Assembly: GCA_964016885.1 (NCBI GenBank) | Contig: OZ024748.1 | Span: forward strand, 49,538,001 to 49,602,000 | Source: Eledone cirrhosa | Lineage: Eukaryota | Length of the DNA stretch: 64,000 nucleotides | Reading direction: 5' to 3' | Shown here: positions 4,320-4,508 of the stretch, in pieces | Numbering within the stretch: position 1 is the first letter of the stretch | How the letters are laid out: the number at the start of each line of letters is the position of its first letter | The notes under the pieces: generated by a model | What the model was told of the DNA's origin: nothing | Database searches by the model: none | Seen by the model: only the letters and a program-made list of their open reading frames with translations | Position numbers and translations under genes: made by a program

Positions 4320-4321
<2 letters not shown>

Positions 4322-4506
4322 AACGAGTAGGACCCCGACGGCTGAGCTCAAGCCGTTTCGACATTTCGACGTCCAGAATTAGCCGTCGAAACGGCTTGAG
4401 CTCAGCCGTCGGGGTCCTACTCGTTCCTATTACCCATTCTACTACCCTAAGTATTGAGTACTTTGGTGCGTTATGGTCCACCTGGTTCCTTACCACATTG
4501 CCTTCG

Positions 4507-4508
<2 letters not shown>
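4320..4508 (+). mobile_element. Fold-back short element in (TA)n (family D) with the 3' half of a hammerhead motif
   Basis: Inverted arms 4320-4362 and 4385-4427; contains GAAA-CGGC-TTGAGCTCA-GCCG-TC; related copies at 52518, 56079 and 63286. Confidence 0.85.

What the first reader, a model, noticed from the sequence alone, without database searches (positions are those of the whole stretch)
4320..4508. Family D: repeated fold-back at the same hairpin, probably hammerhead stem II
Seen: three insertions (4320, 56079, 63286) share the same ~135-bp body in (TA)n with an inverted copy of its start. All turn at the GGCTAATTCTGGA/TCCAGAATTAGCC hairpin just before GAAA-CGGC..GCCG-TC (stem III plus a GUC triplet). 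The CUGANGA half is absent in every copy. Inference: reverse transcription stalls at the long stem II, and the cDNA snaps back and copies itself. The ribozyme structure would then dictate the insertion architecture and yield ribozyme-dead palindromes. Inverted termini are known in Penelope-like elements; a fixed turn point at the ribozyme is the notable part.
Basis: partly seen in the sequence, partly recalled or inferred. Interest (0 to 1): 0.75.

Follow-up and report, generated by a model that had tools for sequence, protein, structure and literature searches.

The report
Penelope stubs mirror at RNA start
These hairpins are stub insertions of a very common Penelope-type jumping gene, and their mirror point likely marks the capped start of the element's RNA rather than a ribozyme roadblock, which would explain how this class makes its mirror-image ends by copying RNA from both sides of one DNA cut.

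Summary
The three palindromes are real. They are stubs of a Hydra-clade Penelope-like element (3,531-bp unit, 716-aa RT + GIY-YIG ORF); 7,758 exact-pattern short palindromes exist genome-wide. The turn is clustered, not fixed: 96 of 126 arm ends lie 33-46 nt upstream of the predicted hammerhead cut, and 60 of 63 junctions differ. The fixed points are the outer ends (+17, +97). Stall plus snap-back is not supported. Non-inverted copies start at the same place, and the inverted arm is the longer one in 15 of 29 long pairs. A non-native G precedes position -41 (29 G versus 7 C; 57 of 65 at one junction type, on either arm), below a TATA-like box. Best reading (inferred): two cDNAs primed on opposite target ends run off the capped RNA start inside stem II and are joined head to head. 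The parent hammerhead has core YUGANAA (U3-A8 variant), not CUGANGA; a minor end peak sits at its cut site. The architecture is known. I found this mechanism in no paper searched, and no RNA data could test it. This scan reached the same reading earlier on other DNA of this genome.

The parts
4162..4319 (.). left (TA)n target
4320..4362 (-). inverted tail-less arm, +17 to -26 relative to the predicted hammerhead cut
4363..4370 (.). junction insert, a templated repeat of the last 7 nt of the inverted arm plus one base
   Evidence: seen directly
4371..4427 (+). direct arm head (-40 to +17): 3' strand of stem II, GAAA (4388-4391), stem III, predicted cut 4410/4411, 3' strand of stem I
4428..4507 (+). 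80-nt tail (+18 to +97); in full-length units it runs on into the 5' leader and ORF
4508..4815 (.). right (TA)n target
56080..56213 (-). second copy, direct arm plus tail (-37 to +97), CTTACTGG subfamily
56214..56266 (+). second copy, inverted tail-less arm (-37 to +16); shares its subfamily variants with its partner
63286..63343 (-). third copy, inverted tail-less arm (+16 to -42)
63345..63483 (+). third copy, direct arm plus tail (-42 to +97), with a 4-nt micro-inversion of the GAAA loop at 63363-63366
52518..52649 (.). fourth copy: inverted arm joined straight to the tail; the direct head is missing, likely deleted after insertion
36955..37011 (-). tail-less arm of a related subfamily
57802..57844 (+). 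partial head of a related subfamily starting at -41 with a G before it

Best explanation
The hairpins are stub insertions of a Hydra-clade Penelope-like retroelement, likely made when two cDNAs, primed on the two ends of one cut in (TA)n at the fixed RNA sites +97 and +17, both ran off the likely capped 5' end of the element's RNA at -41 and were likely end-joined head to head. Shown: the architecture, the fixed outer ends, the clustered but varied inner ends, the symmetry of the two arms, the extra G and the parent element. Inferred: the transcription start at -41 (TATA-like box 29 nt upstream, initiator-like TYAGT), the cap origin of the G, two primers, and end-joining. The start lies inside hammerhead stem II, so the stubs lack the ribozyme's 5' half because the RNA begins after it. 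Long arms would come from priming at the downstream repeat of a read-through RNA.
For: Outer ends: the tail-less arm starts at +17 in 65 of 70 inverted arms. Tail on one arm 4,967, neither 48, both 103. Both sites are followed by TAT in the RNA sense. Inner wall: 59 of 90 direct arms start at -46..-33, none at -100..-56; 96 of 126 arm ends at -33..-46. Same wall in non-inverted copies and on copies reading into the ORF (6 of 30 loci). Extra G: before -41, 29 G vs 7 C among 100 listed of 571 junctions, and G before -42/-43/-44 in 1/1/0 (counted by eye); the native base is T in 62 and C in 3 of 65 long arms. In GGAC-N-AGTCC junctions 57 G, 6 A, 2 C of 65; of 40 fetched, G is on the tailed arm in 19, the tail-less arm in 16, unclear in 5. 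Symmetry: inverted arm longer 22, direct 23, equal 11 of 56 short pairs; 15 / 11 / 2 equal / 1 unclear of 29 long pairs, with excess up to ~3 kb. Literature: a purified Penelope protein cuts and extends both strands and starts RT at two internal sites bounding the tail (PMC11167929); untemplated 5' G is attributed to cap copying (PMC3287187); TATA plus Inr in pLTRs (PMC3846280).
Against: No RNA 5'-end data were available, so the start site is untested. In the pooled loci (206 arms, including palindromic joints) the base before -41 was G 10, C 11, A 1: the G signal is clear only in the two cleaner junction classes. In GGAC-G-AGTCC the G could come from slippage onto the nearby GACG repeat. A second pile-up at -43..-46 (25 of 90) is unexplained: a second start, or A-tailing that mimics the native TTT. 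Central deletions in a long palindrome after insertion could also make arms unequal in both directions (recalled). Arm lengths are correlated (4 of 5 vs 2 of 65, Fisher p 8e-5) and arms match in subfamily (67 of 68); this needs both primers on the same or a sibling RNA, and snap-back predicts it too. The 90-locus sample is one subfamily on the first 60 Mb of one contig.
Confidence: 0.7

Rival explanations
1. One tail-primed cDNA reaches the capped 5' end, folds back on itself and copies itself to +17, where TAT microhomology rejoins the target; later tip processing makes the arms uneven.
For: Arms match in subfamily in 67 of 68 and in length class; long arms are 92-100% identical within most copies. 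First-strand cDNA hairpin priming is established (recalled).
Against: The inverted arm is longer by hundreds to thousands of nt in 15 of 29 long pairs. The extra G is on the inverted arm alone in 16 of 40. 48 palindromes have no tail at all, and single tail-less arms exist. Two RT starts bound the tail in vitro (PMC11167929).
Confidence: 0.13
2. One reading: RT stalls at the long hammerhead stem II and the cDNA snaps back, so ribozyme structure sets the turn.
For: The turn region does lie in the 3' strand and apex of predicted stem II.
Against: 7 of 126 ends at the stem base and 96 near the top; 4 of 63 pairs pass the apex. The native 5' strand is not found in the inverted arms. Same ends occur without inversion. 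An extra G marks -41. An RNA starting at -41 would have no stem II at its 5' end.
Confidence: 0.06
3. Self-priming on an antisense template, as proposed for head-to-head Penelope palindromes in PMC3846280.
For: It is the published reading of such junction palindromes.
Against: It does not explain the sense-strand G at -41 on both arms, the peak at the sense ribozyme cut site, or TAT microhomology at both sense start sites.
Confidence: 0.04
4. A few palindromic master stubs spread as a unit, like a SINE or MITE.
For: High copy number; a few junction types recur.
Against: 60 of 63 junction descriptions differ. Each subfamily has its own palindromes. Recurrent junctions occur in both mirror orientations.
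Confidence: 0.05

Closest known systems
Hydra clade of Penelope-like elements, e.g. Hydra-1_Obim, Hydra-2_Amil (Craig et al. 2021, PMC8557442; section 11, passages and supplement passages seen)
   Same: Single ORF, RT then C-terminal GIY-YIG; RWx, DKT, CxCx5C, CxxC and CxH motifs; (TA)n target; hammerhead in the repeat; partial tandems with an inverted 5'-truncated copy and a one-sided tail.
   Different: A different family from Hydra-1_Obim (by-eye comparison of the printed protein; a 12-nt stem III motif had 0 hits in the supplement text held). Unit 3.53 kb vs generally <3 kb; tail 80 nt vs 30-40; core YUGANAA, not canonical.
Poseidon PAc of Anolis (Frangieh et al. 2024, PMC11167929; parts 1-2 of 4 read)
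   Same: Two internal RT starts bound the tail; AT-rich target; both strands cut and extended; predicted dimer; hammerhead just upstream.
   Different: Another clade. The parts read do not derive inverted copies from the two starts or link their centre to the RNA 5' end, and no reads were found ending at the ribozyme cut.
Adineta vaga Penelope inverted pLTRs (Arkhipova et al. 2013, PMC3846280; passages seen)
   Same: Head-to-head inverted pLTR with junction palindromes, optional tail, TATA plus Inr in the pLTR.
   Different: Explained there by self-priming on an antisense template; the data here favour two primers on sense RNA.
U3-A8 minimal hammerheads of Schistosoma Cercyon PLEs (Cervera and de la Pena 2014, PMC4209133; parts 1-2 of 4 read)
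   Same: U3-A8 in place of C3-G8; G10.1-C11.1; palindromic loop III; pairs on opposite strands 100-700 bp apart.
   Different: Here stem III has 4 bp beyond the 15.1-16.1 pair and stem II is long and holds the predicted promoter start; 990 matches carry an unpaired C3/A8.
L1 twin priming and cap-derived 5' G (PMC11702581, PMC3287187; passages seen)
   Same: Second target end primes RT; an extra G marks full-length ends.
   Different: L1 inversions tile one RNA without duplication (recalled); here both arms copy the same stretch, from two fixed starts.

Membership tests
EN+ Penelope-like element | single ORF with RT and GIY-YIG endonuclease | tested here: met
   716-aa ORF, YRDD at 348, IY..YIG at 592; 944 homologues at E<=0.001 among 7,989 scored. 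Pfam copy on hand gave 0 families.
EN+ Penelope-like element | tandem or partial-tandem units, inverted truncated copy, one-sided tail | tested here: met
   3,531-bp tandem units differing at 1 site
Hydra clade | RWK-like, DKT, CxCx5C linker, CxxC and CxH motifs; C-terminal EN | tested here: met
   RWR 37, DKT 117, CNCPDRSIC 572, CNLC 670, CKH 698
Hydra clade | (TA)n insertion preference | tested here: met
   66 of 70 left flanks are (TA)n; 144 of 148 tail ends
Hydra clade | generally short (<3 kb) | tested here: not met
   unit is 3,531 bp; the paper says 'generally', so this is a tendency
Hydra clade | placement in an RT phylogeny | not tested
   reference sequences were seen only as supplement text; no tree built
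Type I hammerhead ribozyme | three stems around a conserved core | tested here: met
   MFE of L189:672-785 is the type I fold (z only -0.46; the C3 copy L033 did not fold so); 93% of cells paired in 32 copies, covariation too low to test; position 7 takes all four bases
Type I hammerhead ribozyme | canonical CUGANGA core | tested here: not met
   core is UUGANAA (4,220) or CUGAGAA (990); U3-A8 is a published variant; no Rfam hit in the window
Type I hammerhead ribozyme | self-cleavage after GUC | tested here: inconclusive
   36 of 74 distinct short copies in the -5..+3 window start exactly at the cut (by eye), but a stop at the foot of stem III gives the same place, and the C3-linked subfamily shows no deficit (13 per 8,361 vs 22 per 10,203)
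Non-LTR retrozyme | short tandem units each with a complete hammerhead | tested here: not met
   stubs are single palindromes with half a hammerhead; definition from 10.64898/2026.07.22.740005 (part 1 read)

The most novel reading that the evidence does not exclude
Penelope-like elements integrate by two-ended reverse transcription: an asymmetric RT-endonuclease pair primes at +97 on one target end and +17 on the other. Thousands of palindromic stubs are strong-stop-like products that record the capped start of the RNA inside the hammerhead and, in a minority, the ribozyme's own cut in vivo. The promoter placed within stem II keeps the 5' end free of an active ribozyme, and jumps from these RNA ends build the partial tandems.
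Probability: 0.45. Interest if true: 0.75.

Novelty: new member of a known kind. Interest (0 to 1): 0.52.

Why it matters
How Penelope-like elements make their head-to-head inverted ends is named as open in PMC8557442 and PMC3846280. This family gives thousands of independent junctions with exact coordinates (+97, +17, -41, 0) that turn the question into a direct experiment. If right, the stubs are a genomic record of the RNA's capped start and of hammerhead cleavage, and the ribozyme's structure is not what shapes the insertion. The element and its architecture are of a known kind.

Tried and rejected
Rfam scan of the window: 0 hits at gathering score. Pfam: 0 families for the partial and full ORF. 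PDB sequences: 0. Protein atlas gave no answer. Sequencing runs: no RNA holder listed; contigs of 4 runs laid on 4200-4620 cannot show RNA starts and only show the family and tail-less (TA)n joints in independent data. Covariation on 32 close copies was uninformative (1 pair with a two-sided change, 126 of 500 shuffles as high). The first DNA search was biased to copies holding the whole body and was not used for end statistics. One search used a reference with flanking (TA)n and was redone; the arm-concordance pattern was mis-sized and redone. Test that the C3/A8-linked subfamily has fewer cut-site ends: no clear difference. Target-site duplications could not be read in (TA)n. Paper searches (listings only unless cited) found no paper stating two-ended priming with cap run-off for Penelope elements; subscription journals are mostly not held and bioRxiv supplements are closed. 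No ORF remnant of the element lies in the window.

Full report
Coordinates below are relative to the predicted hammerhead cut (0 = between GUC and GGGGUC; window 4410/4411).

Observation. The three copies exist and align at 91%. Each is (TA)n, an inverted tail-less arm, a junction, a direct arm with an 80-nt tail, and (TA)n. The hairpins are far beyond chance. They do not share one turn: -26/-40 with an 8-nt insert at 4320, -37/-37 at 56079, -42/-42 with one G at 63286. Four more related pieces lie in the window.

Parent. The window lies in a 3.0-Gb genome. Five of the first 30 loci ran upstream without a short fold-back and led to an RT + GIY-YIG ORF. A search for tails running on into a leader gave 312 matches, including tandem arrays. 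One array has 3,531-bp units differing at one site and an open 716-aa ORF. Its motifs match the Hydra clade as defined in PMC8557442 (section 11; motifs), and by eye it resembles but is not Hydra-1_Obim (supplement passages). The unit is longer than the usual <3 kb and no tree was built.

Ribozyme. Upstream of the hairpin there is no CTGANGA. Exact patterns give 990 matches with CTGAGAA (all 100 listed had no inserted base) and 4,220 with TTGANAA, position 7 taking all four bases. The U3 copy folds at minimum energy into a type I hammerhead, although the z-score is only -0.46 and a C3 copy folded differently. U3-A8 is a published variant in Schistosoma PLEs (PMC4209133). In 32 copies 93% of cells pair, but the copies are too close for covariation.

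Fixed outer ends. Exact counts: 7,758 short palindromes; tail on one arm 4,967, on neither 48, on both 103. In the first 90 of 100 listed of 8,361 head-tail junctions, 66 have an adjacent inverted arm, and 65 of 70 inverted arms found start at +17. Both +17 and +97 are followed by TAT in the RNA sense. This fits the two RT start sites that bound the tail in vitro (PMC11167929).

Inner ends. Direct arms start at -46..-33 in 59 of 90, beyond -100 in 11, and never at -100..-56. Among 63 short pairs, 96 of 126 arm ends fall at -33..-46, 7 at the base of stem II, 4 pairs pass the apex, and 60 junction descriptions are distinct. Copies joined straight to (TA)n start in the same window, and the same short palindrome caps 6 of 30 copies that read into the leader. 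So the wall does not depend on inversion.

What the wall is. Position -41 is the A of TYAGT, 29 nt below TATTTAAA; calling these a TATA-like box and an initiator rests on recalled consensus. Among 100 listed of 571 (TA)n junctions, 29 have G and 7 have C directly before -41, against 1, 1 and 0 with G before -42, -43 and -44 (counted by eye). The native base is T in 62 and C in 3 of 65 long arms. In palindromic junctions with one free base before -41 it is G in 57 of 65. Such a G is attributed to copying the cap in L1-driven insertions (PMC3287187). Against: pooled loci gave G 10, C 11, A 1; slippage could supply the G; the -43..-46 pile-up is unexplained.

One cDNA or two. Snap-back of the tailed cDNA cannot give an inverted arm longer than the direct one. 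Short pairs are symmetric (22 / 11 equal / 23 of 56). Of 29 long pairs in 28 loci, 15 of them chosen as opposite-strand pairs of the upstream motif, the inverted arm is longer in 15 (up to ~3 kb), the direct in 11, equal in 2, unclear in 1. Of 40 of the 57 G junctions fetched, the G is on the tailed arm in 19, the tail-less arm in 16, unclear in 5. Later central deletion could mimic some asymmetry. Arms match in subfamily in 67 of 68 and in length class, so both primers would use the same or a sibling RNA.

Cut-site ends. Among 74 distinct very short copies in a -5..+3 window, 36 start exactly at 0; -1, -2, -3, +1 and +2 have at most 5 each; +3 has about 11, mostly microhomology palindromes; 5 are ambiguous (by eye). 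Jumps to 0 also occur in L172, L178 and L180. This suggests cleaved RNA served as template. A stop at the foot of stem III would look the same, and the C3/A8-linked subfamily shows no clear deficit (13 per 8,361 vs 22 per 10,203). I put cleavage at about 0.6.

Mechanism (0.7). The endonuclease cuts (TA)n on both strands. The two 3' ends pair with UAU at +97 and +17 near the RNA's capped start. Both cDNAs run off at -41, often adding a cap-templated or slipped base, and their ends are trimmed and joined with 0-5 nt overlap or short inserts. Long arms come from the downstream repeat. Architecture and counts are shown; the start site, cap, dimer asymmetry and joining are inferred.

Known and new. 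Inverted truncated copies with a one-sided tail are standard for the class (PMC8557442). The published reading of the junction palindromes is antisense self-priming (PMC3846280). Searches found no paper with the two-ended, cap run-off model; coverage is partial. I recorded this reading before looking at earlier notes; one search then showed that other agents reached it on other DNA of this genome, which is not independent support. Those notes supplied the leads to PMC3846280 and Hydra-1_Obim and call the host an octopus, which I did not test.

Noticed in passing
listing, (TA)n junctions genome-wide: About 7 of 100 junctions read G-C-GTCC, i.e. an extra G with the -41 A replaced by C; possibly misreading of a methylated cap-adjacent A.
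   Followed up: no
L158/L159, L160, L162, L172, L178, L185: Short partial tandems in which the element's leader (about +150 to +210) is joined to a new head starting at -37..-44 or at 0: template jumps from the RNA ends, possibly how pLTR tandems arise.
   Followed up: partly
L069, L120, L122, L141: Long A/T runs at the palindrome centre, suggesting slippage or tailing by the RT at the template end.
   Followed up: no
window 63363-63366; L002, L014-L018: The GCCGT-CGAA-ACGGC mini-hairpin over the GAAA box is micro-inverted or serves as a deletion point in several copies.
   Followed up: partly
L019, L012, L029: Flanking host sequence is duplicated across the insertion, inverted in L019 and L012 and direct in L029.
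   Followed up: no
L256, L268, L272: Three long pairs have the direct arm starting at about -133 to -136; a hotspot or shared descent.
   Followed up: no
window 63501-63836; 4964-5402; 23939-24545: An unrelated ~200-bp repeat family forms an inverted pair beside the third copy and tandem arrays elsewhere.
   Followed up: no
window 56310-56700: Fragment resembling a LINE reverse transcriptase (YADD-like motif, seen by eye) next to the second copy.
   Followed up: no
window 1-769 and 27422-29724: Homogeneous minisatellites of 78 bp (9.9 copies) and 90 bp (25.6 copies, 98% matches).
   Followed up: no
L035:6523-9372: Broken ORFs of another non-LTR element lie beside a Penelope copy.
   Followed up: no
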